Part shown: piece after piece, positions 1 to 45,900 of the stretch
How positions within the stretch are numbered: position 1 is the stretch's first letter
Layout of the letters: each line of letters begins with the position of its first letter
Source: a virus
Lineage: Duplodnaviria > Caudoviricetes
IMG/VR virus record: IMGVR_UViG_3300013099_000004
Span: 1 to 56,737 of that record
Length of the DNA: 56,737 nucleotides
Direction: 5' to 3' (one strand)
Notes under the pieces: generated by a model
Database searches by the model: none
Seen by the model: only the letters and a program-made list of their open reading frames with translations
What the model was told of the DNA's origin: nothing
Made by a program: the position numbers and the translations under genes

Positions 1-123
1 TACAGCATTTAAGACTAAGGTCAAAGGTATAACTAATTTATTTAACCCATGGGTGTCAACACGTTACGGCTTTGCAGACCTTGAAGCTAAAACTGGTGTT
101 GCAGGATTACATAAAACTGCTAA
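1..123. repeat. Terminal direct repeat (circular-assembly overlap), copy 1
   Basis: 1-123 is identical to 56615-56737 and lies inside a continuous ORF. Confidence 0.97.
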
Positions 124-2455
124 GAACTTTATGTATAAGACTGGTAAGGTAGCTTATGATAGTAGTGTACGTATTAATAAAATGTTTGAAGATAACGGTA
201 TAGACCCCAGCAAGTTAGCTGACGACCCTGAAACAGTTAAACAAGTAGTAGCATGGCTTTATGAATCAAATGACGCTGAACGTGAAAAGATAGCTAGTAA
301 CATGTCTGAATATGCCTTAAGGGTAGCTAAGGTAGTAAATGATGAGCTTCAAGGGGAGACAGCTACTAATATCCGTATTGCAAGGTGGATGATGTGGCGC
401 ACTATACCAAGGGCTACACTTGATGAGTACTTACAACTATATCACAGAGTTACCAAAAATAAAGCTTCCAGGGAAGATTTTAAACGTTATGGTAAATTGC
501 AGGGATACTTTGAGTCTATACTACCCCCAGACCTAAAGCCTGAATATGGCGTAGCCAAAAGAGGTAAAGATGCACCATTAATAAAGAGAGGGCTTACACT
601 ACAAGAAGCTAAAGATTTCGTAAGTAAAGACAAGAAAGCATTTAAGATAATGCAACTTACATCAGGCATAGAAGAACTGGTAGAAGCTGATAATATCTAT
701 GAAGCCTATGGCTTGGAAGGACTTAAAGAACACTTAAGTAAGAAGACTTGGGGTACTAGAAAACACTACTATATGAGTAGCTTAGAGCTCGATGATGCAC
801 TAGAGCAATTTGTTAATAATGTTGCTAACCCTGGTGTACTAGGCAAACATACTACCCCATCAGCACGTCCTGGTACTAAAATGCGGGAAGCACATACACG
901 AGTTAATAAAGGAATACCTAAAGAAGCTGAAACATTCTTGCCCGACTTATATAATCATATACAGCGTGCAGCTATTATAGCCGACTCTGGTCTTGATATG
1001 ATTAAACTATCTGATATGTTCTTAGCTGCAATGCCTAAAACCAGAGATGCCAATAGTCAAATACGTACCTTCAAAAGATTTGTTATGAACGCTATGGGGT
1101 TTGATGAGTCCGCTCCAATAGCTGTTAAGACTGTAGAGCGTGTTAATAGGTTTTTCTGGCGTACTTACCCATTCGCTATTAGCAGACCATTATGGTACAC
1201 ATTTAGAAACCTTACACAAAATATAATGGCAGTAGGGCAACTTAATACTCCAGAGGTATTAAAAAGCATATTCCAGTTATCTGCATCAGGTACTAGCGAT
1301 ATGCTTAAACGCCATTTCTCTGCTAACTTTAAATCAGTTATATCACAGAAGTTGCCTATCTTCAGGCACTTTATGATGATGGAACATGATGTAGTTGACA
1401 AGAAGTACAAACGTAAAATGATAAGATTGCTTGATACATTAGGGCAAGTAATACCATTCTCTGATGAAGTTAACCGTATATTGCTATTCCCTGTTGTGCA
1501 TAACATAGCTGAACGTAATGTATCTGCATATAAAGACGGTAAGATTGATTTTGACACACTCGCACGTAAGACGTCGCTTAATAACTTGCACCCTCAAGAG
1601 ATATTAGATATTCAGGATTTACTTAGAGATGGGAAATATGACGAGGCTATATATGAAATATCAGCGGCTAAGGTAGCTAATACACACTTTAGATATAGGA
1701 CTGCTGAACGTGCAGGTATTGAACAGCATAGAACTGCAAGACCATTAACAGGACTTTATAACTGGCCTAGAGGGTTAGTTGAAGCTACATATTACAATGG
1801 TGTTAAGCCATTTGTAGTAGGTATGCAAACTAAGAACTACGGTATGGCATTTAGCGGATTAATGAGTATTACCAAGCTGTTGTCAAGTATGTTTGTAGCA
1901 AGAGAACTACTTAAAAAGATACTTGGGAAGAAAGATGAATATGGTGCATATGATACATTTAATACTATATTCGGGTACTCTCCTGGAAGCGCTGGATTAA
2001 ATTTAGCAATGGATATATTCGAAGACTTTAAAAGAGCGCATGATTATGCCAGAGATGGCGATATAGATAAAGCCTTTTATACCTTAATAGATAGAGCTGC
2101 ATATCACTTACCACTAGTAGCAGATGCGATAAATGTATACGAAGCTACACATGATAGACGTGGCGTAAAGATGATGAGGCTTCTTGACGCCAAATTACGT
2201 AAGGCTGCTAAAGAACCTGGTAAATCTGTTAAACGTACTACAGTTGAGAAATGGCAGCATATGCTATTTGGTACTGAGGAAATATCACAGAGTGAGACTA
2301 AGCGTAAAGAGGAAGAAAAGAAAGTACGTGAGCTTATTAGCTTTTATACCAAGATGGGCATAGAACCACCTATGCACCTTAAGATGAAGTTATCAGTGCA
2401 AGATAGATTTGATGTTGATAGACTTATAGAAAAGATTAAAAGTGGTAACTCTTAA
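1..2455 (+). CDS. 3' part of the ~1441-aa ejection protein (wraps from 54744)
   Basis: Same frame as the 54744 ORF across the overlap; largely helical; last gene of the virion arm. Confidence 0.85.
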   Translation, partial: TAFKTKVKGITNLFNPWVSTRYGFADLEAKTGVAGLHKTAKNFMYKTGKVAYDSSVRINKMFEDNGIDPSKLADDPETVKQVVAWLYESNDAEREKIASNMSEYALRVAKVVNDELQGETATNIRIARWMMWRTIPRATLDEYLQLYHRVTKNKASREDFKRYGKLQGYFESILPPDLKPEYGVAKRGKDAPLIKRGLTLQEAKDFVSKDKKAFKIMQLTSGIEELVEADNIYEAYGLEGLKEHLSKKTWGTRKHYYMSSLELDDALEQFVNNVANPGVLGKHTTPSARPGTKMREAHTRVNKGIPKEAETFLPDLYNHIQRAAIIADSGLDMIKLSDMFLAAMPKTRDANSQIRTFKRFVMNAMGFDESAPIAVKTVERVNRFFWRTYPFAISRPLWYTFRNLTQNIMAVGQLNTPEVLKSIFQLSASGTSDMLKRHFSANFKSVISQKLPIFRHFMMMEHDVVDKKYKRKMIRLLDTLGQVIPFSDEVNRILLFPVVHNIAERNVSAYKDGKIDFDTLARKTSLNNLHPQEILDIQDLLRDGKYDEAIYEISAAKVANTHFRYRTAERAGIEQHRTARPLTGLYNWPRGLVEATYYNGVKPFVVGMQTKNYGMAFSGLMSITKLLSSMFVARELLKKILGKKDEYGAYDTFNTIFGYSPGSAGLNLAMDIFEDFKRAHDYARDGDIDKAFYTLIDRAAYHLPLVADAINVYEATHDRRGVKMMRLLDAKLRKAAKEPGKSVKRTTVEKWQHMLFGTEEISQSETKRKEEEKKVRELISFYTKMGIEPPMHLKMKLSVQDRFDVDRLIEKIKSGNS

Positions 2456-30660: not shown

Positions 30661-30831
30661 ATGCCTAAGAAGTTAGAACGTAAACTTAAAAAGGAAGCCA
30701 AGAAGAAAGGGCTTACTGGCAAACGTGCAGACAGATACGTATATGGTACTATGCGTAAACTTGGTTGGAAGCCTAGCAGAGAGAAGAAACAAACAAGAAA
30801 GCATGTTAAAAAAGCACGCAGAAAGAAATAA
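30661..30831 (+). CDS. 56-aa highly basic protein (not in ORF track)
   Basis: GGGAGG RBS; MPKKLERKLKKEAKKKGLTGKRADRYVYGTMRKLGWKP...; TAATG-coupled to terL. Confidence 0.8.
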   Translation: MPKKLERKLKKEAKKKGLTGKRADRYVYGTMRKLGWKPSREKKQTRKHVKKARRKK

Positions 30832-32492: not shown

Positions 32493-34766
32493 ATGCCTGA
32501 AAAGAAGAAAAATACCAAGAGGGATAAGGCTATGTCTAACTATACCTTATTCCAAAGGTTACGTAGTGGGGCATGGGTAAAATGGCGTAGAGACAGCCAA
32601 CAGTCTTATGACTTCTCACTAGGAGACCAGCTTACTAAACAGGAGCTTGACGACTTAAAACACGCAGGTATGCCTACCTTTACAGTAGATAAGATAAGCC
32701 AGTCTATAGAAGTCTTAAAGTACTTTATAACAGCTAATAACCCTGAGTTCCAAGCTATAGGTACTGAACTTAGTGATGACCGTTTAGCTAAAGTACATCA
32801 AGCTGTCTTAAAGCATATCATGTATATATCTGGTTTTAAAGGTGTATTTGGCAATGTGGTCAATGACGCACTTACTAAGTCAGTCGGCTTCCTGATGTGC
32901 TATATAGACCCAGACCTTGATAATGGTAATGGTGAAGTAGTCATTAAAAGCCTTAACCCATGGGATGTATATGTTGACCCCTCAACAGTTGACATTATGT
33001 ATCGTGATGCAGAATACATATTAATACATAAAGTATTTACCAAGAATACCCTTGTCAACATGCTACCTCAGTTTAAGAGTAAAATACTAAATGCAAAACA
33101 CGGCTCTATCTATTATAGCGATTACTCAGGCAAGGATTCTGACAATAGTAACTCAATACAGCCATGGGAAATATCAAATATAGTAGATAAAGAGGGTTCT
33201 ACTGAAGAACGTATAGACTATTACGAGAAATACTTTAAAAAACGTGTACAGTACTGGACTATTACTTTACGTGAGCAGCTTGATGAAACTCAAATGGAAC
33301 GTGTAAATAAGCAGATAGAAGCAGACCTTGCAGAATATCAGCAAGCCTTAGCCTCTGATGTTGAAGATAAGTCTATAGAAATAAATGATGCCCTTAAACG
33401 TGGTGATATATCAAAGGAACGTGCTCAGTTTGAGCTTAAAAAGCTACAAGAGCAAGCAGCTAAGGCAGTAGAGCAACGACGTAATGAGCTTGTTAATCAA
33501 GTAATTGCAGCAGTAAGTAAAACAGAAATACGTGTTGTAAGCGATGACGAATATAAAATACTAATCAAGAACAAAGACATCAAAGAACGTATAGTAAATG
33601 CAGTACAGTATTGGGAAACACGTATAGGAGTAATAGCTTCAGTAGGCGGAGATACATTCCTGTATGAAGCTACCTTGCCGATAAGTGAGTATCCTATAGT
33701 GCCTGTACCTTATACCCATACCGGTACTCCATATCCGATGTCAGCAGTACGTAAAGTCGTTGGTAAACAGCAGGAAGTAAATAAGACTCACCAGCTTATG
33801 GTATATAATGCAACATTAGGCTCGTCATTAAGATGGCTTCACGAAAAGGGAGCTATACCTAACGAGGATGAGTGGGACGCAACAGCTTCAATACCAGGTT
33901 CAAGGCTTGAATATAATAAAGGCTTTACTCCGCCAGTGCCAGTTCAGCCTATGCAGCTTAGTACTGCATTCTATGAAATAGCTACTAAAGGCGAACGTGA
34001 TATAGAGGAAGGGCTTGGGGTATCTCCATTCAGTATGGGTACTGAAGTACCAGCTCATATACCATATCGTGGTATGCTGCAATGGGATGAAGCTTCAACA
34101 CGTAGAATACGTGCTTGGGTAACTAATACATTAGAGCCAGCCCTTGAACACTTTGGCAAGGTAGTTACTCAGCTTGCCCAATACCACTACGACACAGAAA
34201 AAGTAATACGTCTTGTTGACCCAGATACAAACAACGTAGAAGAGTATAAGATAAACGTACCTGTTTATGACTCATTAGGCTCAGTAGTATCACGTTATAA
34301 TGATTACCAGTCAACACGCTTTGATATTCGTATAGTATCAGGTTCTACCTTGCCGAGGAATAGACGTATGGAAGCTGCCGAAGTAATGGAATATTACAAG
34401 CTAGGTGCGGTTGACGATATAGCATTACTTACTACATCTACGATACCTGACAAGGAAGCTATTATAGCAAGGAAGTCTATGTATGCTCACCTTAAAGGTA
34501 TTAATGACGCCCTTGAAAAACAGGTAAAAGAGATGGCCGGTACTATAGAAACCCTTAAACGACAGCTTGTACAAGCCGGCATTAAGGTTAAAGTTAAAGA
34601 AGTTGACGCTGAGCTTAGCAAGATAGTATCTGACCATAAGGCAGCCTTGAGAGCAGCCGAAGCTCGTTATCGTATGGAACTACGTGCTGCCGGAGCTGAA
34701 GCTAAACATAATGCTAAAAATAAGGAGGTAGAAGAAAAGGCTAAAAAGACAAGTAACAATAAATAA
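32493..34766 (+). CDS. portal protein (P22-like) with internal and C-terminal coiled coils
   Basis: GDQLT, YIDP, PWDVYVDP, YPIVP, QQEVNK; follows terL. Confidence 0.9.
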   Translation: MPEKKKNTKRDKAMSNYTLFQRLRSGAWVKWRRDSQQSYDFSLGDQLTKQELDDLKHAGMPTFTVDKISQSIEVLKYFITANNPEFQAIGTELSDDRLAKVHQAVLKHIMYISGFKGVFGNVVNDALTKSVGFLMCYIDPDLDNGNGEVVIKSLNPWDVYVDPSTVDIMYRDAEYILIHKVFTKNTLVNMLPQFKSKILNAKHGSIYYSDYSGKDSDNSNSIQPWEISNIVDKEGSTEERIDYYEKYFKKRVQYWTITLREQLDETQMERVNKQIEADLAEYQQALASDVEDKSIEINDALKRGDISKERAQFELKKLQEQAAKAVEQRRNELVNQVIAAVSKTEIRVVSDDEYKILIKNKDIKERIVNAVQYWETRIGVIASVGGDTFLYEATLPISEYPIVPVPYTHTGTPYPMSAVRKVVGKQQEVNKTHQLMVYNATLGSSLRWLHEKGAIPNEDEWDATASIPGSRLEYNKGFTPPVPVQPMQLSTAFYEIATKGERDIEEGLGVSPFSMGTEVPAHIPYRGMLQWDEASTRRIRAWVTNTLEPALEHFGKVVTQLAQYHYDTEKVIRLVDPDTNNVEEYKINVPVYDSLGSVVSRYNDYQSTRFDIRIVSGSTLPRNRRMEAAEVMEYYKLGAVDDIALLTTSTIPDKEAIIARKSMYAHLKGINDALEKQVKEMAGTIETLKRQLVQAGIKVKVKEVDAELSKIVSDHKAALRAAEARYRMELRAAGAEAKHNAKNKEVEEKAKKTSNNK

Positions 34767-34833: not shown

Positions 34834-35730
34834 ATGTCAGACTTTACAACGGATAAAGGTACAGCCCAAAAGGATGTATCTCCCGTAGCCACAGTTTCTG
34901 GTGATAATGACACCAAAAGTGTTACTACTATAACACCAGAACCTGTTGATGACAACAAAAGACAGGATAAGTACACAACAGAGGAACTGTTAAAGCTCTA
35001 TTCCGAATCTTCTAAGGAAGGTAAAAGATTACATGCTTTAACTAAAGAGCAGGAAGCCCGAATAAAGGAACTAGAAGATACTGTTAATACTTTATCAACT
35101 AAGTATCAGGAAGTTGAACCTTGGGCAAAAGCTCTTGAAAATCCAGATTTTGTTAGGTACATCAGTAACTATGACCCCCAAAAGGGGAGTGCTGATACCA
35201 CAACTAACAGTAACGATTACGGTTTAGGGGATAATTTCGAGGACTTTGAACCTCGTGATATGTTTAATCCCAACACTCCATCAGGAAAGTTCTTTGCAGA
35301 TATTGTATCACAGCAGGTAAAAACAGTTCTTAACAAAGAATTGTCTGTGCGTGACCAACAGATGCAACAGAAAGAACTACAGGAAAAGGCTGCTATGGAA
35401 ATAGAACGTCAAATTAATGACTTCATTAAGGACAACCCACATATTAACCGAGAAGAAGTAGAAGCTGCTTTAGAAGCTGCCAAAAGCAGACCTCTTACAG
35501 TAGCTGACATTTACTACACAATTAACAGGGATAAAATTAATGAAGATATAAGGCGTTCTACATTAGAGGAAATACAGAATAAACGTCAAAAGACTATTTC
35601 TACTCCTTATCCATTAGCAGTGAGTGCTTCAAGTGATGATGGCAGTGCAGATAAAGACCCCTCTGACCGTATGTATGACATACTCTCAAGGAATTTGAAT
35701 GTACTCGGTATTGTACCTGAAGCTACGTAA
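34834..35730 (+). CDS. scaffolding protein
   Basis: YSESSKEGKRL plus coiled coils; lies between portal and MCP. Confidence 0.8.
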   Translation: MSDFTTDKGTAQKDVSPVATVSGDNDTKSVTTITPEPVDDNKRQDKYTTEELLKLYSESSKEGKRLHALTKEQEARIKELEDTVNTLSTKYQEVEPWAKALENPDFVRYISNYDPQKGSADTTTNSNDYGLGDNFEDFEPRDMFNPNTPSGKFFADIVSQQVKTVLNKELSVRDQQMQQKELQEKAAMEIERQINDFIKDNPHINREEVEAALEAAKSRPLTVADIYYTINRDKINEDIRRSTLEEIQNKRQKTISTPYPLAVSASSDDGSADKDPSDRMYDILSRNLNVLGIVPEAT

Positions 35731-35776: not shown

Positions 35777-37309
35777 ATGACTACACCTTACACTGCTTCT
35801 GATTTTAACGTAACTGATAACGATAGTACGTTAAACGTTGGCGACCTTCGGCGTGGTTACGCATTTACGTCATCTAAGCTTGCTACTCTCAATGTAGCAC
35901 AGGATAGACTGTTCCATATTTTGGCTACTATGCGTAACGAGCCTACACCTGATTCTCAGTTTAAGATTACTGAGGAGCGCCCCTTTCACTGGCGTAGATA
36001 TGGGTTTGTAACAGGATGGAAAACATGGAGTGGTTCAGGTAGCGTACCTGTAACAGGCTATACTGAAGACTCTTCTGATATATCTTCACTTGCACCGCAG
36101 ACCCAGGGTTCTTACATGGCATTTAAAGTAGGAACTGACTATAAATCTGAAGGTAATGTAGGAAACGTATTTGGTCAGTCCAACAACGAAATTACTATAG
36201 GGGATAATGGAACTTGTCCTATCTTCTTTACTAAGAATCAGATAGTTAAAATCTGTACTTCAAGTGCAGTAACTGATAAACTCCCCGACGATTATTTCAC
36301 AGCTAAAATACTTGATGTTCAGACATCTGGTAATTATGCCTATATAGGAGTCGAGGTAGTAAGACCACTTACCGCTGCTGCAAATAAGCACTTATGCTCC
36401 TTTGTTGCAGCCGATACCCCAATATCTGAGACTTATACTTACGCCCACGGTACTACTGTAGGCGATACAAAGAAAATATTGGACGGTATGAAGATTACTG
36501 TAGTGGGTAACGCATATGCCCCTGGAAGTGGTCTTCCTGATTACTACAATGACCAGCCTTTCAGTACTCGTTATGGCTATACTATGATTCTTAAGTGTGC
36601 TTACGGTATGGATAATACTGCTCGTGCAACAGAATACAAGATAGTTAAGAACGAGTTTGAGCGTAACTGGACTAGAACCCTTATGGCCTTTAAGTGGGAT
36701 ATAGCTCAGGAAATCTACTTCTCCTCATTATACAGAGAATCTGATGGTACACAGCATACACAGGGTATTGTGGACTGGGCAATTAACTATGGTAATGTAT
36801 TCTCTATGGATTCTACCAAGTCTGAAGACGACTTCTTAGAGGACTTCTCTACACTTCTTGACCCAAGGTTTAATCCTATTAGTAATTACCTGTTTGTAGT
36901 ACCTACTTACTGGTTTAACTTCTTCTTCAAGCTTGGCAGTGGCGGATACCATTATAATACTCTCATGCTTGGTAATGCTACAGATAACCGTGGTGCTCTC
37001 TATGGTATTAACTTCGCAGGTAAAGCAAGAATAGGTAATGCTCAGATATTCCAGTATTCAACATATCATGGTACTATTAACGTTATGGAAGACATCCATC
37101 TTAATGGTACTCCTATAAAGATGCTTGCTATTCCTATGAACAATATCAAGTATCGTCCTCTTAAGGGCAATGGAATTGACCGTGACGTTTACATTATAGA
37201 AGGAATACAGACCTTAGAGAAAACAGGTATTGATGCATTTGTAAACCATGGTATTGTCGAGTTTGGTATTGAAACCACACTGCCTGAAACTTGGGGAATT
37301 TGGTTATAA
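35777..37309 (+). CDS. major capsid protein (HK97 fold, with insertion)
   Basis: Position, strong RBS, GDLRR, TARAT, KWDIAQEIYF, HTQGIV, YRPL.GNG. Confidence 0.88.
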   Translation: MTTPYTASDFNVTDNDSTLNVGDLRRGYAFTSSKLATLNVAQDRLFHILATMRNEPTPDSQFKITEERPFHWRRYGFVTGWKTWSGSGSVPVTGYTEDSSDISSLAPQTQGSYMAFKVGTDYKSEGNVGNVFGQSNNEITIGDNGTCPIFFTKNQIVKICTSSAVTDKLPDDYFTAKILDVQTSGNYAYIGVEVVRPLTAAANKHLCSFVAADTPISETYTYAHGTTVGDTKKILDGMKITVVGNAYAPGSGLPDYYNDQPFSTRYGYTMILKCAYGMDNTARATEYKIVKNEFERNWTRTLMAFKWDIAQEIYFSSLYRESDGTQHTQGIVDWAINYGNVFSMDSTKSEDDFLEDFSTLLDPRFNPISNYLFVVPTYWFNFFFKLGSGGYHYNTLMLGNATDNRGALYGINFAGKARIGNAQIFQYSTYHGTINVMEDIHLNGTPIKMLAIPMNNIKYRPLKGNGIDRDVYIIEGIQTLEKTGIDAFVNHGIVEFGIETTLPETWGIWL

Positions 37310-37336: not shown

Positions 37337-37735
37337 ATGGGTAACGTTTATCTTGATGGAAAGAATGGGTTTGCCATAGATGAGGATAGGCTAGCTGCTT
37401 TTACAGTCTGCCCTATTGTCAGCGATGAGGTTGACCTTCATGTAGCTGCTACCACGACTTGTGTTGAAGTACCGCCTGGAAGTATAGTTACCAAGGTAGC
37501 AATATGGAATAACAGTGATACTGATGTGGGTGGTTCTGGTGATATTGATGTTGGAACTTCTGGTGACACAGACAAGTTTATTGATGGCTTATCTGAACTT
37601 GTAGCCGGCGATGTTTCAATATCTACAGTTGGAACGTATTTAGCTGATGGCGGTGCAGTTGTAATTAAAGTCAACGACACTAATGGTGCGGACGGTTCTA
37701 CAGCTAAGCTATTAGTATGGTACACTACATTATAA
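37337..37735 (+). CDS. capsid decoration/spike-base protein
   Basis: VPPGSIV...IDVGTSGDTDKF jelly-roll pattern; follows MCP. Confidence 0.7.
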   Translation: MGNVYLDGKNGFAIDEDRLAAFTVCPIVSDEVDLHVAATTTCVEVPPGSIVTKVAIWNNSDTDVGGSGDIDVGTSGDTDKFIDGLSELVAGDVSISTVGTYLADGGAVVIKVNDTNGADGSTAKLLVWYTTL

Positions 37736-37890: not shown

Positions 37891-40800
37891 ATGAGTGTTA
37901 GTTTAGATACAAGAGTACAGCAGTTATCAGGTGATATAGTAGTAGACGAGGGAGTGCTACACCATTGGTATGAAGATGGTGGTATTGATATATTTAACCG
38001 TATAAAGATAATTAATCCTAACTTATTGCCTGAATTTAGTACTACTACCCGTGATATAACGGGCGCATTAGGTATAAGTATAGAACAGACAGGGTCAGAA
38101 TATGGTTCACTAGGTATAGCTTATGTAGAACGTGACGGATACCCATGTACTGAGATACCACAGTATCTGGCTTCTAAAGCAGCAGACCCCAACTCTATAT
38201 ATTATGCTACTAAGAAACATCCCGTATATTATATTGCAAGAGGGTATATATATATACTTCCTACTCCAAGTACTGATGAAACTGGTCATGTGTATACATA
38301 TGCATCACCTAGATATATGTCTATATCGTCTGAAGATGATTTAATGTACTTCCCCTCAAAGTACAATCATCTAGTAGTATTATATGCAGCTATGCAAAAT
38401 GTACTTAGTAAAATAAGTAATATATCAATACCCCAGGATGTAGTTATACCTGCTGTTCCAGTGTTCGACGGTTTATCTTCAGTAAGCCAATCTCTGCCTA
38501 CATTCGAGACAGTTGACCAATTAACACTGCCTACTGTACCTTCTATAGATGATATAGACTTTAGTAGTATTGACTATATACCTGTATTCGTACATCCTGT
38601 ATCTATCTCATTACCTGACTTATCATTAGGTAGTGACCTTGACATAAGCTCGTTTACTCAGTCAACGTCAGCCCCTACACCACCTAGCATATCAATAGGT
38701 GACGGCAATGTTGCTACTTTTGGTACTCCCCCTACTTTTGTAGCTCCCACACTTACACTGGAAACTCTTAGTACCCCAGAAGGTATTACATTACCAGCAG
38801 TCCCTACTATGGGTGAATTTATATCAGTAACTGAATCATTGCCTGTTTGGGATACCGTAGATGCAATTACATTACCTACTCCGCCTACGGATGCTAATAT
38901 AGATTTTTCGGATGTTGACTATATTCCTGTGTTTGTGTATCCAATATCAATATCTTTGCCTGAACTGGATTTAGGTAATGACCTTAATATAAGTTCATTT
39001 ACTCAAACAATTACTCCGCCTACACCACCTGACATATCAATCAGTGATGGGTCTATCGCAACGTTTTCTACAGCTCCTACATATAGTGCTCCTAGTTTAA
39101 CACTCTCAGATGCACCAACTACATCTGAGCTTGTTTTACCAGATGCCCCTACAATAGACTCCTACATTACTGTAAGTGAAACACTGCCTACATGGACTAC
39201 AGTAAGTTCACCTTCTCTACCGACAGCTCCATCAGACACTAATATAGACTTCTCGTCAGTACTAAGTGCTCCTGCATTTAATCCGCCATCATTACTAGTT
39301 CTTCCGGCTGTGCCTGATATTGACGTAACATTGTCCAAGTCTTTATCTGATATACCTGCTATAAGTGATATTAGTTTACCTACATTGACTCTGCCTTCAG
39401 CACCTACTATACCGGACCTTACTATATCAGCTACTCCACCTACTGCTCCTTCAGCACCTTCATACCATTCTAACACGGTATCTATAGGTATTCCGCTGCC
39501 TACATACACACATACTAACCCATGGATTTCATTTACTACGATATTAAGTGATATATCTACATATATAGATACTGATGAGGACGTCGAGTTAGCATCAGCC
39601 AAATTGCAGCAAATGAAGCTTGATATAGATGCAATGCTTGCAGAGATTCAGGACGAGCTGAACTCCTTTAATAGCAATATAAGCAATTATAAGGCAGAAC
39701 TCGAGAAACAGATAGCTGAATACAAGTATATACTTGATGTAGATAATAGTGAATATATAGCAGAACTTCAAAGATATAATGCTCAGATAAATGATTATGC
39801 AGCTCAAGTAAATACCGAGGTTGCAGAATATGTAAACACATATATCAATACTGACCTTAGAGTATGGGAAATACAGGTACAATCAGCTATAGCAGAATAC
39901 CAAGCTAAATCCGGAGCTGAAATCCAGAAATACATAGCTTCTACTAAAGCAGGGGTATCTGAAGCTGAAGCCCTAGTATATAGCACAGAGCTTCAGAAGG
40001 TTTCCTTGGAGAACAATCTTAAGTTGCAAAAGTACTCTGAAGTGGTAGCCTCAAAGGTTAACGAATACAAGGTAGAACTAGATAAGGCAGTACAAGACTA
40101 TACTGCTGACTTTAAGGTATGGGAAACCGAGATTACTAAAGCTATTAACACTTACCAAGCTGAAACTGGTTATGACCTTAATAAGTACGTAGCTGAAGTA
40201 CAGGCAGTTCTTGGTGAACATACAGCTAATCTTAATAATGAAGCTCAGCAATTTAAGAGCAATCTTGACAAGTATATAGCTAACTTACAGTATGTAAATG
40301 CTACTAATGACAGAGTACTTAATAAATATATAGCAGATATTAACAAGTATAATGCAGAAGCAAGCGTTGCAATACAGGAATGGACATTAACTAATATACA
40401 AGATGCCCAAACTTACTGGTTGCATACACGTCAAACAGACATCAGCAAGTATCAGCTCGATATTCAAAATGCGCTAAACGAATTTAACAAGCTGAACACC
40501 GAGTATCAAGCAGATATACAGAAGAAGATAACTGAAGCTAGTAACTTACTAAGTAGTGACGCTGAAACCGCTAGAGCGGAACTCCAAAAGTACGCACATC
40601 AGCTGTCTCAGTATCAAATAGATGTGAATACTGAAGTACAGGAGTATTTGCAAAAAGAAGTTCAAGCAGCATTAACTATATGGATTGAAAAGCGTAAAGA
40701 TTTATTAAGCGAATTTAAAATTAAATCCGATAACGTAATAAATAAATATAATAGTGAGCTTAATGAAGCAATAAGTAAATTCCAATCAGATATACAAATA

Positions 40801-41889
40801 TGGGCTAAGCAAATAGATAAAGCTATAGAAAGCTATACCGGAGAAAAGTCAATAGCTATAAACCGTTATCAAGCTGAAGTACAGGCTATTATAGAAAATT
40901 ACAATAGTGATATTAATAACTCTAATTCTAAATTTAATGCCGAACTTAATAAGTATATTGCTAATGTACAATATGTTAATAACTACAACAATCAAGTATT
41001 AAATACGTACATCAACGATATTAACCGGTATAATGCTGAGGTTAATGCTGTTCTACAGAAGTGGTCTTTAGAAAATATTCAGCTTGCACAAGCTAAATGG
41101 ATTGCTACCAGGCAAACTGATATTAGTAAGTATCAGCTTGATATACAGAGTGCACTTAATAAGTTTAATGAAGCTAATACTGAATATCAGGCAGACATTC
41201 AAAAGAAAATACTTGAAGCTACTAACTCTTTAACTAGTGACATAGAGACTGTAAAGGCCGAGCTTAACAAGTATTCTGAGCAGTTAGCGCAATACCAGAT
41301 AGACGTAAATACAGAAATTCAAGAATACTTACAGAAGGATGTACAAGCAGAACTTACAGAATGGGTAGAAAAACGTAGGAACTTACTTGAAGAGTTTAAG
41401 ATTAAGTCAGATAATGTTATTAACAGATATAATAGTGAAGTAAATGAGGCAATAAACAAATACCAGTTAGACATTCAGATATGGTCAAAACAGATAGACC
41501 AGATATTAACTGAGTATAACTTAAAGACCGGCTTTGATGTAGAAGCTTATAAGTCAGAAGTACAGGCTCTAATAGGTAAATATACCGAAGATATTAATAA
41601 TGCAGCAGCTACATTTAATGCTGGGCTTTCTAACTACCAAGCTGAAGTAGATAAGGTAAACTCAGAAAACAATGGTAAGTTAGCTGAATACAGTGCAGAT
41701 ATTCAATTATTCAACTCACAAGTAAATGCGGAAATCAGTAAAGCTCAAGTAAACTTACAGAAAGTAAGTATTGAGCAGAACAAATATGTGGAGTTATATA
41801 AGTCATTACGTACACAGTATGAACAAGGCTTCTTGCCATTCCAGATACGTAATGATAGAGGTTATCAGTCTATAAACCCAATAATATAA
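37891..41889 (+). CDS. Neck/adaptor-domain protein with a giant Pro-rich + helical insertion (predicted alpha/PPII stalk)
   Basis: N-terminal adaptor-like PVYY..G.IYILPTP and LVVLYAA; Pro-rich aa 181-544; Pro-free aa 545-1315. Confidence 0.8.
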   Translation: MSVSLDTRVQQLSGDIVVDEGVLHHWYEDGGIDIFNRIKIINPNLLPEFSTTTRDITGALGISIEQTGSEYGSLGIAYVERDGYPCTEIPQYLASKAADPNSIYYATKKHPVYYIARGYIYILPTPSTDETGHVYTYASPRYMSISSEDDLMYFPSKYNHLVVLYAAMQNVLSKISNISIPQDVVIPAVPVFDGLSSVSQSLPTFETVDQLTLPTVPSIDDIDFSSIDYIPVFVHPVSISLPDLSLGSDLDISSFTQSTSAPTPPSISIGDGNVATFGTPPTFVAPTLTLETLSTPEGITLPAVPTMGEFISVTESLPVWDTVDAITLPTPPTDANIDFSDVDYIPVFVYPISISLPELDLGNDLNISSFTQTITPPTPPDISISDGSIATFSTAPTYSAPSLTLSDAPTTSELVLPDAPTIDSYITVSETLPTWTTVSSPSLPTAPSDTNIDFSSVLSAPAFNPPSLLVLPAVPDIDVTLSKSLSDIPAISDISLPTLTLPSAPTIPDLTISATPPTAPSAPSYHSNTVSIGIPLPTYTHTNPWISFTTILSDISTYIDTDEDVELASAKLQQMKLDIDAMLAEIQDELNSFNSNISNYKAELEKQIAEYKYILDVDNSEYIAELQRYNAQINDYAAQVNTEVAEYVNTYINTDLRVWEIQVQSAIAEYQAKSGAEIQKYIASTKAGVSEAEALVYSTELQKVSLENNLKLQKYSEVVASKVNEYKVELDKAVQDYTADFKVWETEITKAINTYQAETGYDLNKYVAEVQAVLGEHTANLNNEAQQFKSNLDKYIANLQYVNATNDRVLNKYIADINKYNAEASVAIQEWTLTNIQDAQTYWLHTRQTDISKYQLDIQNALNEFNKLNTEYQADIQKKITEASNLLSSDAETARAELQKYAHQLSQYQIDVNTEVQEYLQKEVQAALTIWIEKRKDLLSEFKIKSDNVINKYNSELNEAISKFQSDIQIWAKQIDKAIESYTGEKSIAINRYQAEVQAIIENYNSDINNSNSKFNAELNKYIANVQYVNNYNNQVLNTYINDINRYNAEVNAVLQKWSLENIQLAQAKWIATRQTDISKYQLDIQSALNKFNEANTEYQADIQKKILEATNSLTSDIETVKAELNKYSEQLAQYQIDVNTEIQEYLQKDVQAELTEWVEKRRNLLEEFKIKSDNVINRYNSEVNEAINKYQLDIQIWSKQIDQILTEYNLKTGFDVEAYKSEVQALIGKYTEDINNAAATFNAGLSNYQAEVDKVNSENNGKLAEYSADIQLFNSQVNAEISKAQVNLQKVSIEQNKYVELYKSLRTQYEQGFLPFQIRNDRGYQSINPII
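38431..39330 (+). repeat. ~2.5 copies of a 345-nt (115-aa) Pro-rich repeat
   Basis: IDFS anchor at 38554, 38899 and 39244. Confidence 0.9.
40050..41760 (+). repeat. ~2.5 copies of a 681-nt (227-aa) helical repeat
   Basis: QTDISKYQLDIQ at 40432 and 41113; boundaries approximate. Confidence 0.88.
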
Positions 41890-41899
41890 TGAGGTTATC

Positions 41900-42400
41900 A
41901 TGTCAGATGTAGTAAGATATAGTATAAGTGTTGAACCGAGAGAAGAGCTTACTAATGAAAATGGCGGTACTAAAGTAGTACTTGCTAGTGAAGTTAATAA
42001 GATACTTGGGGGTGATGGTAGCGCTATAGTAACTGATTATTCAGCTACCCCTACCTTGCAAGGATACAAAGACGGTTCAGTTATATACTTAGAATGTACT
42101 GACAATACCAGTGTACACTTAACTGCCGAAGCTACAGCGTCATTTGTATTTATTAAGAATACCGGTTATACTTATAGTTCAGCTACAGAGTTAGGCTCGC
42201 CTTCCTCTAATAGCGTTAAAGTCACAGTAGTGAATAGTGGTACTACATTACTAAGTATTCTTGACGCCGGTGAGTGTATAGTCCTAAAAGACGATAATGC
42301 CGGTATAGATGCTAGTAAGATATATGTACAAACAGTAACAAGCTCTGGTGGAGCAGTTACTGACGACCATCTTGCAGTAGAATATTTGGTAGTAGATTAA
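41900..42400 (+). CDS. virion structural protein
   Basis: Beta-rich; paralog of the next gene (ASEV, QGY.DG..Y.E.T, NTG.TYSS..ELG, LKD.NA.I, LAVE). Confidence 0.75.
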   Translation: MSDVVRYSISVEPREELTNENGGTKVVLASEVNKILGGDGSAIVTDYSATPTLQGYKDGSVIYLECTDNTSVHLTAEATASFVFIKNTGYTYSSATELGSPSSNSVKVTVVNSGTTLLSILDAGECIVLKDDNAGIDASKIYVQTVTSSGGAVTDDHLAVEYLVVD

Positions 42401-42409
42401 GAGGCAATA

Positions 42410-42964
42410 ATGAGTAGTGGCGTAAGAGCTAAAATAGGCGTATATCCTGTAGAAATACTTGCTGACCATGATAGTAATACGCACGAAGTAATAGCTAGTG
42501 AAGTACTAAGTAAGTTATCTGGTGAGCTTGACGTACCTATATGCTACCCTTTTAGCGGTATGCAATATAAGCAAGGATACCAAGATGGTAACCCGTATTA
42601 TGTTGAAGCTACTAGTACTTCATATACTTCGCCTTTGCTTGAAGACACTGCGTCATCAGTACTTATTATTAATACAGGTATGACATATAGTAGTAACTCT
42701 GAGCTAGGAGAACTTAATGATAATACCTTGTTAGAAGTCAGAATAGATAACGTGGTAATAGCAAGACTTGCTAAAGGCGAGCCTATACTGCTCAAAGACG
42801 CAAATGCTACAATAAACTGTAACAATATATCTCTAAGAACGGTAAAATCAGACGGGACTATAGATACGTCATTATCGTCGTTAGCAGTAGAGTTCTTAGC
42901 TACTCATGTATCTGATGGTATATATGGACTTGTTGAGACAATACTTCTTGAATTAGGAGCTTAA
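42410..42964 (+). CDS. virion structural protein (paralog of 41900..42400)
   Basis: Shares the motifs listed for 41900..42400. Confidence 0.75.
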   Translation: MSSGVRAKIGVYPVEILADHDSNTHEVIASEVLSKLSGELDVPICYPFSGMQYKQGYQDGNPYYVEATSTSYTSPLLEDTASSVLIINTGMTYSSNSELGELNDNTLLEVRIDNVVIARLAKGEPILLKDANATINCNNISLRTVKSDGTIDTSLSSLAVEFLATHVSDGIYGLVETILLELGA

Positions 42965-42983: not shown

Positions 42984-45900
42984 ATGGCAACATGGAATAA
43001 AGATAACGTAGTAATACCTGTAGTATCGACCTTACTACCTTCAGCAGTAAAGATAGTACGAGAGGACTTATCATATCCTGGGGATGCAGTATCTTGTACT
43101 CAGACTACTAAATCTGTTAGTAGGTGGATACCTAATAGTAACCTTGATACTGAATACGAGTATGTTGTATATGCTGACGATATTGAGATAGGACGTATTA
43201 GAGGCTCTGATGCTACCGAGATATTCCGCCATGATGTAGCTATATATGGCGACCTTACTGTATCAGGAACTATTAATGGTGACTCAGTAGGATTACCATA
43301 TATAGGTTCGGCTACTTATACTGATTTACATGACTGGTGGAATACTACCCAGTCAGCCGGCAAGCTTACCGGTGGCACAATAACAGATAATGGAAATGGT
43401 TCTGCTACTGTTGCAGCCGGTAGTGGTATTATTAAAACCACTAATAATGATATTGGTGAAAGTAAATTCTTCAACTGGGCTGAAAACACGAATGTATCAT
43501 TAACTGATAATTCAATTAATTATATTTATGTAGAGTACAATTCAGGCAACCCTCAAATTGCAGTAGCTACTTCAAATCCTACTGACAAGAACACAAACGT
43601 TCTACTTGGCATGGTCTATAGAGAAGGTACAGACTTACATATTACAACAGCAGGACAATACGTTGCTAATTATGCCAAGAACGATTTTTGGAAAGACATT
43701 GACGTCAACGGCAAATTGCAGTGGTCGTCTGGTATAAAACCCTCTGAGAGTGGAACACGTTACCTTGCTCTTACTGAAGGCAAGATTTATGCAGGCTTGA
43801 CACCTGTTACTTTCAATGCGTTTAATAGTTCTGCCACGGCAATGACAGGATATTATTCTGATGGCGGAAGTGGTTGGACTTCAACATCTGTTAACCAGAT
43901 TGACAACCAGTACTATGATGACGGTTCTGGGGCACTTGCCTCATTGACTAATAATAACTACACTTGTAGATACATATACATTGATAGCGATAATCATGTG
44001 TATATGGTTTATGGCACTTCTGAATACAACAAACTTGGTGATGCAATAGAGGAAGAGCCACCAGATAGTGTTCCTATCATGTTATCCTCAATTGGGATGT
44101 TAGTCTCTAAGGTTATCATCAAGCAAGGACAGACAAACTTTGAGCGGGTATATTCATACTTCGGTATAGACCGCCCTGCCGGTACAGTTATCAATCATGA
44201 CGAGCTTGGCAATATACTCGGCTCTGGGGCTTATCATTTATCTGAGAGTGAGCATACCGAGCTGACAGAATGGATGGATGATGTTACTCTGTCAGACGGC
44301 GGGGAAGCTGACCTTAGCAATAATTATATTACCTCCCTCCAGAATACCACAGACGCCGGAGCTGGGATAGTAGGGAATTATTATAGCTTTGATGGGGTGG
44401 ATGATTATGGAACAGTTTCTAACTGTGCAGATATAGCTGATGATGTTTCAAGAACAATAAGTTTTTGGTTTAAAGCTCCGAGTGGGCAATCAATTGAGAA
44501 TCCAAGACTTTTTGAAAAGAAACAGGAATACTTTTGTTACACGTATGATTATGGCAATAGTTCAGACGTTACAGTATTTGGTATCTATGATGATAGCCCA
44601 CATTCAATAGAGATAAGTAATTCGAGAATATTTACTAATAACTGGATAAAAATAGATTTTATTATTGACCGTGAAAATAATTATATGTATGTATATATTA
44701 ATGGAGTTTTAGAAGGTAGCCTTGATATAAGTAGTATAAATGACATAGAAAGCAGTTATAATTTATTTATTGGTGCAAAAGAGGGGATTTCTTATTATAT
44801 TAATGCTGAATATGCTAAATTCCAAATATTCAACACCGCCCTCACCGCAGACGAAGTAAAAGCTTTATACTCAGGTGCTTCTGTTCCGTTTAAACATCAA
44901 GGAGCGAGTCAGGCAGCCTTTACTTCTGGAACGCTTACAATCGGCTATGAATATATTATAGATACTTATGTTTCTGGAGATGACTTTACTAATGTTGGGG
45001 CTTCTTCAAATGCGAGCGGTGAGGTGTTTACTGCAACAGGCACAACACCGACTGATTGGAGTAATGGTAGTTCGCTGAGACATACCGGCTGTGTCCTCAA
45101 CCTTAACAAATCCAAAACAACCGATACATGGTACGATGAAAGCAGTAACAACTTAGACGCTACCATGCACGGAGCTACCTTAGTAAGTAATAACAAGTAT
45201 GGTTATTTTGAGAGAGGACTTATGACTGATGGAGATATAAAGCAGGAAGTTCATACCTCCAATGTAAGTAATCCTCCCACAGACGCAGAACTTGACGCTT
45301 TATTTACAAGTCCTTCAAGTAAAGGTGCAGGCTGGACAGCTTACGTGAAAGACTCAGATACTGACAGCATGTACCAAATTACCTCAGACGGTACTAACTG
45401 GCAGATAGTAGCTATGACACCCGCAGACGCTACTGCAAATAGCTCATCTACTGCAACATCTAATATAGCATTTACTGAAAATAACGAGTTCCCAGCTAAC
45501 ATGGTCTTAATACGTAATGAAGAGCTAAATAATACATTAAGTACATCAACAGGTACTCCTATTACTGTAAGCAGTATAGATACAGGAGCTAATACTATAA
45601 CACTTAGTTGGTTACCCTATATACCAAGTATATGGAATCCTGGTTCTGGTCGTAAGTGGGCTTTAAAGAATGTAACACATTCAGGCAACGGTTTATTGAT
45701 AGACAGTGGTACATATTCTACAAGGGTATTAAACTACACAACTGTTTGGGGAGATGATGCTAATTGGTCAGTAGGTGATAAGGTAGTACTATATAACCCT
45801 TATCGTTCTAATATAGAATTCTATGACGGCAATCCAGTATTCTTACAAGATTCTGGGGGTATTTATACGTTATATGCTAATCCTGGTGGTGGTTTCTATC

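What the first reader, a model, noticed from the sequence alone, without database searches (positions are those of the whole stretch)
37891..41889. Neck protein with a predicted ~110-nm alpha-helix/polyproline-II hairpin stalk built by matched 1:2 duplications (antigen I/II-like whisker)
Seen: an adaptor-like N-terminal domain is followed by a 364-aa PxxP-rich, acidic, nearly K/R-free arm (aa 181-544), a short turn (IDTDEDVELA), and a 771-aa arm with no proline and periodic Tyr (e.g. EYIAELQRYNAQINDYAAQV). Each arm holds ~2.5 repeat copies, with periods of exactly 115 aa (345 nt) and 227 aa (681 nt). The period ratio is 1.97 and the whole-arm ratio ~2.1. Established: PPII rises ~3.1 A/residue and an alpha helix ~1.5 A (ratio ~2.07); streptococcal antigen I/II builds its stalk by packing AxYxAx[LV] helices antiparallel against PxxP PPII helices. 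Inference: the arms zip into one antiparallel hybrid fibre, ~35 nm per repeat and ~110 nm in total, with both termini at the neck. Lengthening it would need two separated DNA segments to duplicate together. The order is the reverse of AgI/II and there is no apical V domain. I know of no described phage appendage of this type.
Basis: partly seen in the sequence, partly recalled or inferred. Interest (0 to 1): 0.88.

Follow-up and report, generated by a model that had tools for sequence, protein, structure and literature searches.

The report
Phage neck adaptor with hairpin fibre
This phage gene encodes a head-to-tail adaptor that has grown a very long, thin fibre made of one chain folded back on itself, a proline-rich strand lying against a helix exactly twice as long in residues, and hundreds of uncultured phages keep that 1:2 rule.

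Summary
ORF 37891-41889 (+) encodes 1332 aa: an adaptor-like N-domain, a Pro/Ser/Thr-rich arm almost free of K/R with a 115-aa repeat, the turn IDTDEDVELA, and a 771-aa proline-free arm with a 227-aa repeat.

The reading as a zipped antiparallel hairpin is supported by comparison.
- The closest relative, P0002 (990 aa), lacks exactly one 115-aa and one 227-aa unit.
- In 228 homologs the arm lengths correlate (r = 0.95). The median helix:Pro ratio is 2.01, and only 4 of 228 exceed 2.25.
- Independent repeats in other lineages keep period ratios of 1.6-2.05.
- Residues covary across the arms along j = 1.6-1.8 x i from the turn. None of 500 permutations reached this.
- An AlphaFold model of a 524-aa member puts the C-terminal helix end back into the adaptor fold. 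The hairpin is therefore an insertion within an SU10/T7-type adaptor.

Still open: AlphaFold does not model the Pro arm with confidence, and PPII geometry, oligomeric state and function are inferred. No named or cultured member was found. I rate it a new variant of a known kind. It is analogous to the streptococcal antigen I/II stalk, not a member of that family.

The parts
37891..41889 (+). Whole gene (1332 aa plus stop): adaptor with inserted hairpin fibre
   Evidence: ORF list and translation. Syntenic with the SU10 gp11 adaptor position: terminase, portal, scaffold-like, MCP, 132-aa ORF, this gene, fibre.
37891..38427 (+). N-terminal adaptor core, aa 1-179
   Evidence: A local HMM of the family N-domain covers aa 1-179. 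Pfam SU10_adaptor is sub-threshold here (18.5 bits against a cut-off of 27) but above the cut-off in relatives P0096, P0116 and P0024. The AF2 model of relative P0096 matches solved podophage adaptors.
38428..39564 (+). Pro/Ser/Thr-rich extended arm, aa 180-558
   Evidence: P 15.1%, K+R 1 of 364, PxxP enriched. No beta-like period of 2.0 across the family; weak period of 2.55-3.0.
38458..38802 (+). Pro repeat P1, aa 190-304 (base-proximal)
   Evidence: 56.5% identical to P2. Ortholog of P0002 copy p_a (69%).
38803..39147 (+). Pro repeat P2, aa 305-419: the extra copy absent from P0002
39148..39492 (+). Pro repeat P3, aa 420-534 (diverged, next to the turn). Contains Tyr525 of the AP.Y motif.
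   Evidence: Ortholog of P0002 copy p_b (65.5%). Column 525 covaries with helix columns 618-624.
39565..39594 (+). Turn and helix N-cap, IDTDEDVELA, aa 559-568
   Evidence: Found at aa 559. The E[ED]D[IV]E[LM]A-type motif was found by pattern in 8 of the 12 first proteins; two more have only loose variants and two were located separately. D564 is nearly invariant in A3.
39574..41730 (+). Proline-free helical arm, aa 562-1280
   Evidence: 771-aa Pro-free stretch. AF2 models of relatives give long helices. Hydrophobic period 3.6-3.65.
39688..40368 (+). Helix repeat H1, aa 600-826 (diverged, next to the turn)
   Evidence: Ortholog of P0002 copy h_a (67%).
40369..41049 (+). Helix repeat H2, aa 827-1053: the extra copy absent from P0002
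41050..41730 (+). Helix repeat H3, aa 1054-1280 (base-proximal)
   Evidence: 62.6% identical to H2. Ortholog of P0002 copy h_b (77%).
41731..41886 (+). C-terminal end of the helix plus tail (…YEQGFLPFQIRNDRGYQSINPII), aa 1281-1332. Proposed to complete the adaptor helix bundle and perhaps to reach the portal.
   Evidence: The tail motif is conserved across the family. In the AF2 model of P0096 the last 24 residues have pLDDT 88-96, and solved adaptors align over model range 1..524. For P0001 itself this is inferred by homology.

Best explanation
The gene encodes the portal-binding tail adaptor of a complete 56.7-kb podophage genome of the SU10/T7 adaptor type.

Between the core of the adaptor fold and its last helix, the chain makes a very long excursion.
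- A Pro/Ser/Thr-rich, acidic strand almost free of K/R runs outwards in an extended, PPII-like conformation of about 3.0-3.3 A per residue.
- It turns at the acidic cap EDxELA.
- It returns as an alpha-helix (1.5 A per residue) whose single hydrophobic stripe (Tyr plus aliphatic residues, period 3.6-3.65) is covered by the extended strand.
- The end of that helix re-enters the adaptor domain.

Because both ends are fixed in one small domain and the strands are zipped, the helix must hold about twice as many residues as the strand. In this phage that gives a fibre of roughly 110-120 nm (383 aa x 3.1 A; 770 aa x 1.5 A). If adaptors are dodecamers as in solved phages, there would be up to twelve fibres at the neck.

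The fibre is modular. The basic unit is about 55 aa of strand plus about 105-110 aa of helix; here it is doubled to 115 plus 227. It lengthens by duplicating a strand unit and its helix partner. The base-proximal pair P1+H3 gave rise to P2+H2.

Shown: the anatomy, the matched indel, the 1:2 law, the antiparallel registry, the covariation between arms, and the adaptor fold with the C-terminus returning.
Inferred: PPII geometry, straightness, one hairpin per subunit, and function. The most likely function is a neck whisker that enlarges the reach of the virion for first contact with host or surface, or that senses it.
For: 1. Matched indel.
- The turn motif sits at aa 562 in P0001 and aa 447 in P0002, a difference of 115. 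The helix arms are 770 and 543 aa, a difference of 227.
- P0002 has orthologs of P1, P3, H1 and H3 only.

2. Length law.
- In 137 profile-search homologs r = 0.93, the median ratio is 1.93, 115 of 137 lie in 1.7-2.2 and none lies above 2.2. The sd of log ratio is 0.134 against 0.474 when the pairs are shuffled; the lowest of 1000 shuffles was 0.40.
- With 91 further proteins from a second search, n = 228: r = 0.954, median 2.01, 195 of 228 in 1.7-2.25. Pro arms span 54-570 aa and helix arms 117-1125 aa.

3. Independent repeats.
- 30 of 153 proteins have strong repeats in both arms.
- 28 of those 30 have period ratios of 1.61-2.05, across at least ten period classes from 41/84 to 115/227. The other 2 are harmonics.

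4. Antiparallel registry.
- The recent copies are P1-P2 (N-terminal) and H2-H3 (C-terminal). The diverged copies P3 and H1 flank the turn.
- The fractional position of the repeat zone, measured from the turn, agrees between the arms in 28 proteins (r = 0.79).

5. Covariation (MI with APC, gaps excluded, 246 sequences).
- The mean score in the band j = 1.6-1.8 x i is 0.029, against 0.006 +/- 0.004 for permuted Pro-arm columns. None of 500 permutations reached it. Reversing the column order gives 0.0066.
- 24 of the top 40 pairs are cross-arm.
- Tyr525 pairs with helix columns 618, 621, 622 and 624.

6. The Pro arm is conserved. P0001 against P0002 gives 65-69% in the Pro copies and 67-77% in the helix copies, against 55.6% in the N-domain.

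7. Adaptor identity and ring closure.
- Pfam SU10_adaptor is above its cut-off in 3 of 8 relatives scanned.
- Foldseek's top PDB hits are podophage adaptors with probability 1.00.
- VIA-align fits the adaptors over model range 1..524 (7wmp_m: Z 11.1, rmsd 3.2, 161 aligned). The C-terminal 24 residues have pLDDT 88-96.
- Gene order matches SU10.

8. Periodicities. The helix period is 3.6-3.65, with power 8.9 against 3.6 at period 3.5. The Pro arm is depleted at period 2.0.

9. A physical precedent is the antigen I/II stalk, in which helix Tyr residues fit into PxxP pockets over more than 50 nm (passages of PMC7732690).
Against: - AlphaFold gives low confidence for most of the Pro arm: below 50 for aa 177-378 of P0002 and 44-54 for aa 181-250 of P0096.
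- In the P0096 model the helix arm is broken at 340-342 and 445-447. That part matches antiparallel helical bundles (ClyA, HR1 mimic, PLC-beta coiled coil; Z 8-10). AlphaFold therefore draws a zigzag rather than a straight hairpin.
- Proline is only 12-15% of the arm and its 3-residue periodicity is weak (power about 2).
- Exceptions exist. 29 of 228 ratios are below 1.7 and 4 are above 2.25. P0225 (2.62) and P0231 (2.83) each lack one 40-41-aa Pro unit relative to near relatives. P0011 and P0138 have helix arms 145-155 aa shorter than relatives with similar Pro arms.
- The sequences are related, so correlations overstate the number of independent events. Completeness at the C-terminus was judged by eye from the tails.
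- No virion image, no cultured member and no expression data exist. Function is a guess.
Confidence: 0.7

Rival explanations
1. Rod plus leash. The helix arms of several adaptor subunits (two, three or more of the twelve) form an autonomous coiled-coil rod. The Pro arm is a taut leash that must reach the far end because the C-terminus is anchored in the adaptor. It either lies in the grooves of the bundle or does not bind at all.
For: - A leash alone explains a ceiling on the ratio.
- There is one clear hydrophobic stripe on the helix.
- Twelve copies would sit side by side in a ring (PMC9509320 passages).
- AlphaFold gives low confidence for the Pro arm.
- The helix arm gives apolipoprotein-like helix hits.
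Against: - A free leash would not be held just under the ceiling in 195 of 228 proteins.
- It would not keep matched repeat periods.
- It would not be as conserved as the helix.
- It would not covary with helix positions along j = 1.6-1.8 x i.
- The period of 3.6-3.65 is not that of a classical left-handed coiled coil.
- The groove-bound variant of this rival is not excluded by any of these points.
Confidence: 0.2
2. Compact bundle. The helix arm folds back on itself at the once-per-module break sites into antiparallel helical bundles, as AlphaFold draws it. The product is a knob or short stalk at the neck rather than a fibre of about 110 nm.
For: - In the AF2 model of P0096 the helices 280-339, 343-444 and 448-523 have breaks 105 aa apart.
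- That part of the model matches three-helix or antiparallel bundles at Z 8-10.
- Conserved G/N-rich elements occur at the breaks.
Against: - Helix arms vary continuously from 117 to 1125 aa, and the Pro arm scales linearly with them. A zigzag needs equal segments and a fixed parity to bring the C-terminus home, and it places no demand on linker length.
- In P0002 AlphaFold gives unbroken helices of 111 and 179 residues.
- My own knowledge, not tested here: kinking of long lone helices is a common compaction artefact of monomer predictions.
Confidence: 0.07
3. The protein is not an external appendage. The long arms would serve inside the particle or during assembly, for example as a scaffold, ruler or ejected protein.
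For: Long helical, repetitive proteins in phage structural modules are often tape-measure, scaffold or ejection proteins (general knowledge). No virion data exist for this family.
Against: - The N-domain and the C-terminal helix together form the adaptor fold, which sits outside the capsid on the portal clip in solved phages (PMC9509320 passages).
- A separate scaffold-like ORF lies at 34834-35730.
- The gene sits at the adaptor position.
Confidence: 0.03

Closest known systems
Streptococcal antigen I/II stalk (SpaP/P1, SspB, BspA). Source: Larson et al. 2010 as cited in PMC7732690; passages read.
   Same: - One chain folds back so that an alpha-helical repeat region pairs antiparallel with a proline-rich repeat region.
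- About two helix residues pair with each strand residue.
- Tyr on the helix and PxxP on the strand.
- The repeats are modular in both arms.
- The two ends are locked together at the base.
- The stalk is tens of nm long.
   Different: - No sequence relation: no antigen I/II Pfam family was among the matches of P0001.
- Order reversed (strand first, helix second).
- No apical V domain.
- No LPXTG anchor in the sequence.
- Pro content is 12-15% rather than a true polyproline repeat.
- Helix period is 3.6-3.65 instead of heptads.
- The base is a phage adaptor fold.
- Up to about 175 nm in the longest member, by arithmetic.
SU10 gp11 / T7 gp11 / KP32-type tail adaptors (Pfam PF24175; PDB 7z47, 6r21, 7wmp and others)
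   Same: - Fold of the N-domain plus the C-terminal helix.
- Gene position after the MCP and a small 132-aa ORF, before the fibre genes.
- Pfam match in relatives.
   Different: - Known adaptors are about 190-250 aa and have no excursion. Here 1100 residues are inserted before the last helix.
- Whether a portal-embracing loop exists is unknown.
T4 fibritin (wac) neck whiskers (recalled from my own knowledge, not from a call)
   Same: Long, thin, helix-based fibres at the phage neck. The function proposed here is of the same kind.
   Different: - Fibritin is a separate trimeric heptad coiled coil with a foldon.
- Here the fibre is part of the adaptor chain and is a strand-on-helix hairpin.
- No fibritin family was among the Pfam matches, and the period is 3.6-3.65.
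Pancreatic-polypeptide fold (PPII helix, turn, alpha-helix; recalled, not from a call)
   Same: Same order of elements and the same packing principle, with helix aromatic residues against prolines.
   Different: 36 residues against more than 1100. No homology was tested.
Exchangeable apolipoproteins (Pfam PF01442)
   Same: Amphipathic helices with 11/18-residue periodicity. Hits: 31.4 bits for P0001, 89.6 bits for P0006 against a cut-off of 90, and ApoA-IV at E = 3.8e-9 with the family profile.
   Different: All hits are below the family cut-off. There are no proline punctuations and the context is viral structural. I read the similarity as one of composition and periodicity.

Membership tests
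SU10/T7-type tail adaptor (PF24175) | N-terminal domain homologous to adaptors by profile | tested here: met
   P0001 itself is sub-threshold (18.5 bits against 27, aa 102-169). Its homologs, joined to it by the family profile (E down to 1e-247), pass: P0096 31.0, P0116 32.4 and P0024 28.8 bits. SU10 gp11 scores 103.6 bits.
SU10/T7-type tail adaptor (PF24175) | Adaptor fold (helix bundle plus fibre-dock) | tested here: met
   AF2 model of relative P0096: N-domain pLDDT 94-97. Foldseek top hits are 7qoj_D, 7z47_A and 8jov_2 at probability 1.00. VIA-align gives Z 8-11.1 to KHP30, A4, GP4, T7 and SU10 adaptors. This was tested on a relative, not on P0001.
SU10/T7-type tail adaptor (PF24175) | Gene position in the structural module | tested here: met
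   The window has terminase, portal, 298-aa ORF, MCP, 132-aa ORF, this gene, then fibre. SU10 has the same order, with gp11 after a 132-aa gp10.
SU10/T7-type tail adaptor (PF24175) | C-terminal portal-embracing loop | tested here: inconclusive
   The last 62 aa give no meaningful Pfam match. A conserved tail motif exists. VIA-align reaches SU10 chain residue 215 of 228.
SU10/T7-type tail adaptor (PF24175) | Dodecamer on the portal clip | not testable with these tools
   Needs a virion structure or a multimer model with the portal.
Antigen I/II adhesins | Sequence homology of the A and P repeats | tested here: not met
   The Pfam scan of P0001 lists only Apolipoprotein and SU10_adaptor. The PDB profile search lists no antigen I/II chain among its best 60 of 65 matches.
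Antigen I/II adhesins | Domain order N-A-V-P-C with an apical V domain and an LPXTG anchor | tested here: not met
   The order here is strand, turn, helix, with 17 residues between the last Pro (544) and the helix cap. The translation contains no LPXTG.
Antigen I/II adhesins | Antiparallel pairing of helix and Pro-rich strand at about 2:1 residues | tested here: met
   Ratio law, registry and covariation. The PPII backbone geometry itself cannot be tested here.
Fibritin-type trimeric coiled-coil whisker | Heptad (3.5) periodicity and a foldon/fibritin domain | tested here: not met
   Period 3.6-3.65, with power 8.9 against 3.6 at period 3.5. No fibritin family in the Pfam output.
Exchangeable apolipoprotein (PF01442) | Score above the Pfam gathering threshold | tested here: not met
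   31.4 bits against 90 for P0001. The best relative, P0006, scores 89.6 against 90.

The most novel reading that the evidence does not exclude
The fibre would be a monomeric, single-chain strand-on-helix zipper, the first phage fibre that is neither trimeric nor a coiled coil, and it would work as a latch. Its helix is the direct continuation of the last helix of the adaptor bundle. Pulling on the fibre or peeling the strand off it at host contact would then be transmitted to the adaptor-portal joint and prime tail-fibre deployment or DNA release. The lop-sided distribution of ratios (many just under 2.2, a tail of slack strands, almost none with excess helix) would record how such fibres grow: the strand unit duplicates first and is tolerated as slack, and the helix unit follows.
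Probability: 0.15. Interest if true: 0.92.

Novelty: new variant of a known kind. Interest (0 to 1): 0.8.

Why it matters
- Known phage fibres and whiskers are trimeric beta-structures or coiled coils encoded by separate genes. Here a fibre tens to more than a hundred nm long is part of the adaptor chain and appears to be built on the strand-on-helix principle known from one family of bacterial adhesins. That would be a convergent solution.
- The family is large: 920 clusters at 50% identity with E <= 1e-30. It is unnamed and seen only in uncultured viruses, so it may be a common feature of environmental podophages that nobody has imaged.
- It gives a clean quantitative case of co-evolution between two distant segments of one gene. 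The length law has a physical ceiling, the duplications are matched, and the residues covary. The fibre is also a natural, length-programmable nanoscale rod.
- All of this can be tested with recombinant protein, without the host.

Tried and rejected
- Complex prediction with the two arms as separate chains (A3 residues 562-805 against 445-561) scored 0.23 and 0.31 against a mark of 0.32. This is no verdict, and I use it neither for nor against binding.
- hhalign of family alignment A2 against SU10 gp11 gave no signal (probability 1.3). A Pfam scan of the last 62 aa for the adaptor C-terminus found nothing meaningful.
- PHROGs has no family for P0001 or for five of the six neighbours scanned with it.
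- tblastn of P0001, P0155 and P0096 against 50,697 phage records found no match. The portal finds only distant Vibrio phage portals at 23% identity.
- The PDB sequence profile finds only apolipoproteins and generic helical proteins. VIA-align and Foldseek list no antigen I/II chain among the rows shown. That is no evidence that the folds differ, because the Pro arm is poorly modelled.
- The search for related loci with alignment A3 was not possible, as no conserved stretch was found. With P0001 alone it returned only the contig of P0002.
- Pfam scans of ten low-ratio outliers found no inserted domain. Two of them, P0110 and P0129, carry a Pro-free, helix-like insert of about 200 aa in the first arm. 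Across 137 proteins the ratio falls as the longest Pro-free gap grows (Spearman -0.55).
- Ideas considered and dropped:
  - A 12-helix barrel as a DNA conduit. The surface is too polar and the chain returns to the neck.
  - A stay-cable over the capsid. Arm length varies about ten-fold in the family.
  - A Ca-binding tip. The acidic motif reads as a helix N-cap.
- Literature searches for a phage adaptor or fibre with a PPII/helix hairpin returned nothing relevant. I saw search listings only, plus passages of PMC9509320 and PMC7732690. Supplementary files were not opened. The SU10 supplement may give adaptor domain boundaries that I could not see.

Full report
**What is there**

The window is a complete virus record of 56,737 bp with direct terminal repeats. 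ORF 37891-41889 (+) encodes 1332 aa.
- Residues 181-544 hold 55 prolines (15.1%), 39 D+E and a single K/R.
- The motif IDTDEDVELA starts at residue 559.
- From residue 545 to 1315 there is no proline at all, a stretch of 771 aa.
- PxxP occurs 15 times against 8.0 +/- 2.4 in shuffles; 10 of 2000 shuffles reached 15.
- Self-comparison peaks at an offset of exactly 115 aa in the first arm (39.6% identity) and 227 aa in the second (38%), far above all other offsets.
- Each arm has three copies, two similar and one diverged. P1-P2 are 56.5% identical and H2-H3 62.6%, while P2-P3 are 29-42% and H1-H2 24-40%.
- The recent copies are only 61-64% identical in DNA, which is why Tandem Repeats Finder sees nothing of long period.

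**Where it sits**

The neighbours are a terminase (30831-32474), a P22-like portal (32493-34766), a coiled-coil 298-aa ORF, an SU10-type major capsid protein (35777-37309) and a 132-aa ORF. Then comes this gene, followed by two small ORFs and a 1278-aa tail fibre with a ConA-like lectin domain. Phage SU10 has the same order, and its adaptor gp11 follows a 132-aa gp10.

P0001 matches Pfam SU10_adaptor only below threshold (18.5 bits against 27). Three of eight relatives scanned pass the threshold.

**The family**

A word-index search gave 11 relatives. A profile of these read against 1.84 billion representatives gave 2444 hits at E <= 1e-3, 1797 at <= 1e-10 and 920 at <= 1e-30.

Nearly all of the 158 proteins then in hand that I could inspect share one plan: adaptor domain, P/S/T-rich arm, an acidic E[ED]D[IV]E[LM]A-like cap, a long proline-free Q/N/E/A-rich arm, and a conserved C-terminal motif.

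Sources name them only 'hypothetical' or 'uncharacterized', and once 'chromosome segregation ATPase'. The ESM Atlas neighbours are unnamed viral clusters. BFVD holds a few unnamed look-alikes. tblastn of three members against 50,697 deposited phage genomes found nothing.

**Test 1: the matched indel**

The closest relative, P0002, is 990 aa and lies on a 56,193-bp viral contig. Its cap is at residue 447 rather than 562, so its first arm is 115 aa shorter. Its helix arm is 543 aa rather than 770, so it is 227 aa shorter. It has orthologs of P1 (69%), P3 (65.5%), H1 (67%) and H3 (77%). The extra units in this window are therefore P2 and H2. With copies this diverged in DNA, an assembly collapse is unlikely.

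**Test 2: the length law**

I placed the end of the N-domain and the cap with local HMMs, and checked the cap against a proline change-point.
- In 137 proteins judged complete, the arm lengths correlate (r = 0.93). The median helix:Pro ratio is 1.93, 115 of 137 lie in 1.7-2.2 and none lies above 2.2.
- A second sample from a different search adds many short members, for example 66 with 137-140, 78 with 165, and 86 with 186.
- Combined, n = 228: r = 0.954, Spearman 0.945, OLS slope 1.67 +/- 0.03 with intercept 40, and Theil-Sen slope 1.77. The median ratio is 2.01, with 195 of 228 in 1.7-2.25, 29 below 1.7 and 4 above 2.25.
- The mode of 2.0-2.2 is what 1.5 A per helix residue against 3.0-3.3 A per fully extended residue gives.
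- Ranking hits by profile score should not create the ceiling, because extra helix adds score (my argument, not tested).
- Low ratios go with Pro-free inserts in the first arm (Spearman -0.55). Two outliers carry a helical insert of about 200 aa.
- Two high outliers each lack one 40-41-aa unit relative to a near relative. Either the rule is not absolute or short repeats were collapsed in assembly.

**Test 3: independent repeats**

Thirty of 153 proteins have strong repeats in both arms. The period pairs include 41/84, 43/83, 53-55/105-110, 57/97-98, 61-64/98-110, 67/130, 80/155, 88/155, 94/165, 101/170, 106/203 and 115/227. In 28 of the 30 the ratio is 1.61-2.05, and the other 2 are harmonics.

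Different lineages have thus duplicated different units and still kept the proportion. A basic module of about 55 plus 105-110 residues recurs, and the unit in this window is about twice that size.

**Test 4: registry**

In this protein the recent copies lie at the N-terminal end of the strand arm (P1, P2) and at the C-terminal end of the helix arm (H2, H3). The old copies flank the turn. This is the pattern expected if P1 pairs with H3 and that pair was duplicated. A parallel registry predicts duplication of H1-H2 instead. Across 28 proteins the repeat zone lies at the same fractional distance from the turn in both arms (r = 0.79).

**Test 5: covariation**

I aligned 55 residues before and 115 after the cap in 246 proteins and computed mutual information with APC correction.
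- With gaps counted as a state, 24 of the top 40 pairs join the two arms.
- With gaps excluded, the mean score in the band j = 1.6-1.8 x i is 0.029, against 0.006 +/- 0.004 when the strand columns are permuted. None of 500 permutations reached it. With the column order reversed the score is 0.0066.
- The column of Tyr525, the Tyr of the recurring AP.Y..P motif, pairs with helix columns 618, 621, 622 and 624, about one helical turn apart.
- MI on related sequences is not a contact map, but a phylogenetic artefact would not follow this line.

**Structure prediction**

P0002 with 12 sequences:
- Mean pLDDT is 56.
- The N-domain is at about 80. The Pro arm is below 50, except for the 60 residues before the turn (58-80). 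These face the first roughly 110 helix residues (62-84).
- Unbroken helices reach 179 residues.

P0096 (524 aa) with 55 sequences:
- Mean pLDDT is 75.6.
- The N-domain is at 94-97, the Pro arm at 44-69 and the helix arm at 64-81. The last 24 residues are at 88-96.
- Foldseek's best PDB matches are podophage adaptors: crAss001, SU10, GP4, A4, KHP30 and T7.
- VIA-align fits them over model residues 1..524 (Z up to 11.1, rmsd 3.2, 161 aligned).
- The end of the long helix therefore completes the adaptor fold, and the hairpin is an insertion inside the adaptor. That explains why the chain must come back.
- The same model breaks the helix arm at 340-342 and 445-447 and resembles antiparallel bundles there. 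I read this as compaction, because a zigzag cannot accommodate the continuous ten-fold range of arm lengths or the linear scaling of the strand. It remains a rival.

**Other properties**

- The family-wide hydrophobic period of the helix is 3.6-3.65 (power 8.9) rather than 3.5 (power 3.6). The stripe is straight, as in hendecad or apolipoprotein-like helices. This also explains the sub-threshold apolipoprotein hits.
- The strand arm shows no period of 2.0 and a weak one at 2.55-3.0.
- Both arms are acidic.
- The strand copies are as conserved between P0001 and P0002 (65-69%) as the helix copies (67-77%), and more conserved than the N-domain (55.6%). That does not fit a disordered linker.

**Comparison with what is known**

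In the antigen I/II adhesins an alanine-rich helical region and a proline-rich region of one chain intertwine into a stalk of more than 50 nm. Tyr residues of the helix fit into PxxP pockets, and the N- and C-terminal parts lock the base (passages of PMC7732690).

The present protein works like that by every test above, but it is not a member. There is no sequence relation, the order is reversed, and there is no V domain and no LPXTG. Its base is an SU10/T7-type adaptor, described as a dodecamer with a helix bundle, a fibre dock and a C-terminal embracing loop (passages of PMC9509320).

I found no paper describing a phage adaptor or fibre of this construction (listings only).

**Verdict**

PPII geometry, a straight fibre, one fibre per subunit and the function are inferences. 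Confidence is 0.7 for the architecture and much less for the function. I rate it a new variant of a known kind, with interest 0.8.

Noticed in passing
window 1-56737: The window is a whole virus record with direct terminal repeats, estimated 100% complete. It is a complete podophage-like genome with no close relative among 50,697 deposited phages. The portal's best match is 23.5% identical, to Vibrio phages.
   Followed up: partly
window 5014-7533 (-): The family A DNA polymerase carries an N-terminal uracil-DNA glycosylase superfamily domain (aa 19-153) ahead of the 3'-5' exonuclease and polymerase domains.
   Followed up: no
window 37337-37735 (+): This 132-aa ORF sits exactly where SU10 has its 132-aa Ig-like gp10, but it has no Pfam or PHROGs match.
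   Followed up: partly
window 41900-42400 and 42410-42964 (+): Two small ORFs (166 and 184 aa) lie between the adaptor and the tail fibre, with no family match. They could be fibre-attachment or nozzle-associated parts.
   Followed up: no
window 42984-46820 (+): The 1278-aa tail fibre (phrog_5668) has a ConA-like lectin/glucanase domain at aa 470-626.
   Followed up: no
P0110 and P0129 (relatives): These two family members carry a proline-free, helix-like insert of about 200 aa inside the first arm, with repeats such as TELDETQAVCD…LAKAEAAELA. This accounts for their low arm ratio of about 1.2. It may be a side branch or a tip elaboration.
   Followed up: partly
P0225 vs P0222, P0231 vs P0064, P0011 vs P0009, P0138 vs P0071 (relatives): In each of these pairs of near relatives, one unit is missing in one arm only: 40-41 aa of strand, or 145-155 aa of helix. 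They are either natural intermediates of module gain or loss, or repeat collapses from assembly.
   Followed up: partly
P0161 (relative): One source labels a family member 'chromosome segregation ATPase'. This is most likely an automatic coiled-coil mislabel.
   Followed up: no
P0096 aa 330-352 and 435-457; P0168: A conserved G/N/T-rich element (…VGRDTTNLNIQN…, …RADNIDVVNK…) recurs once per helix module of about 105 aa, at the places where AlphaFold breaks the helix. It could be a hinge or a docking site for the AP.YT.P motif.
   Followed up: partly
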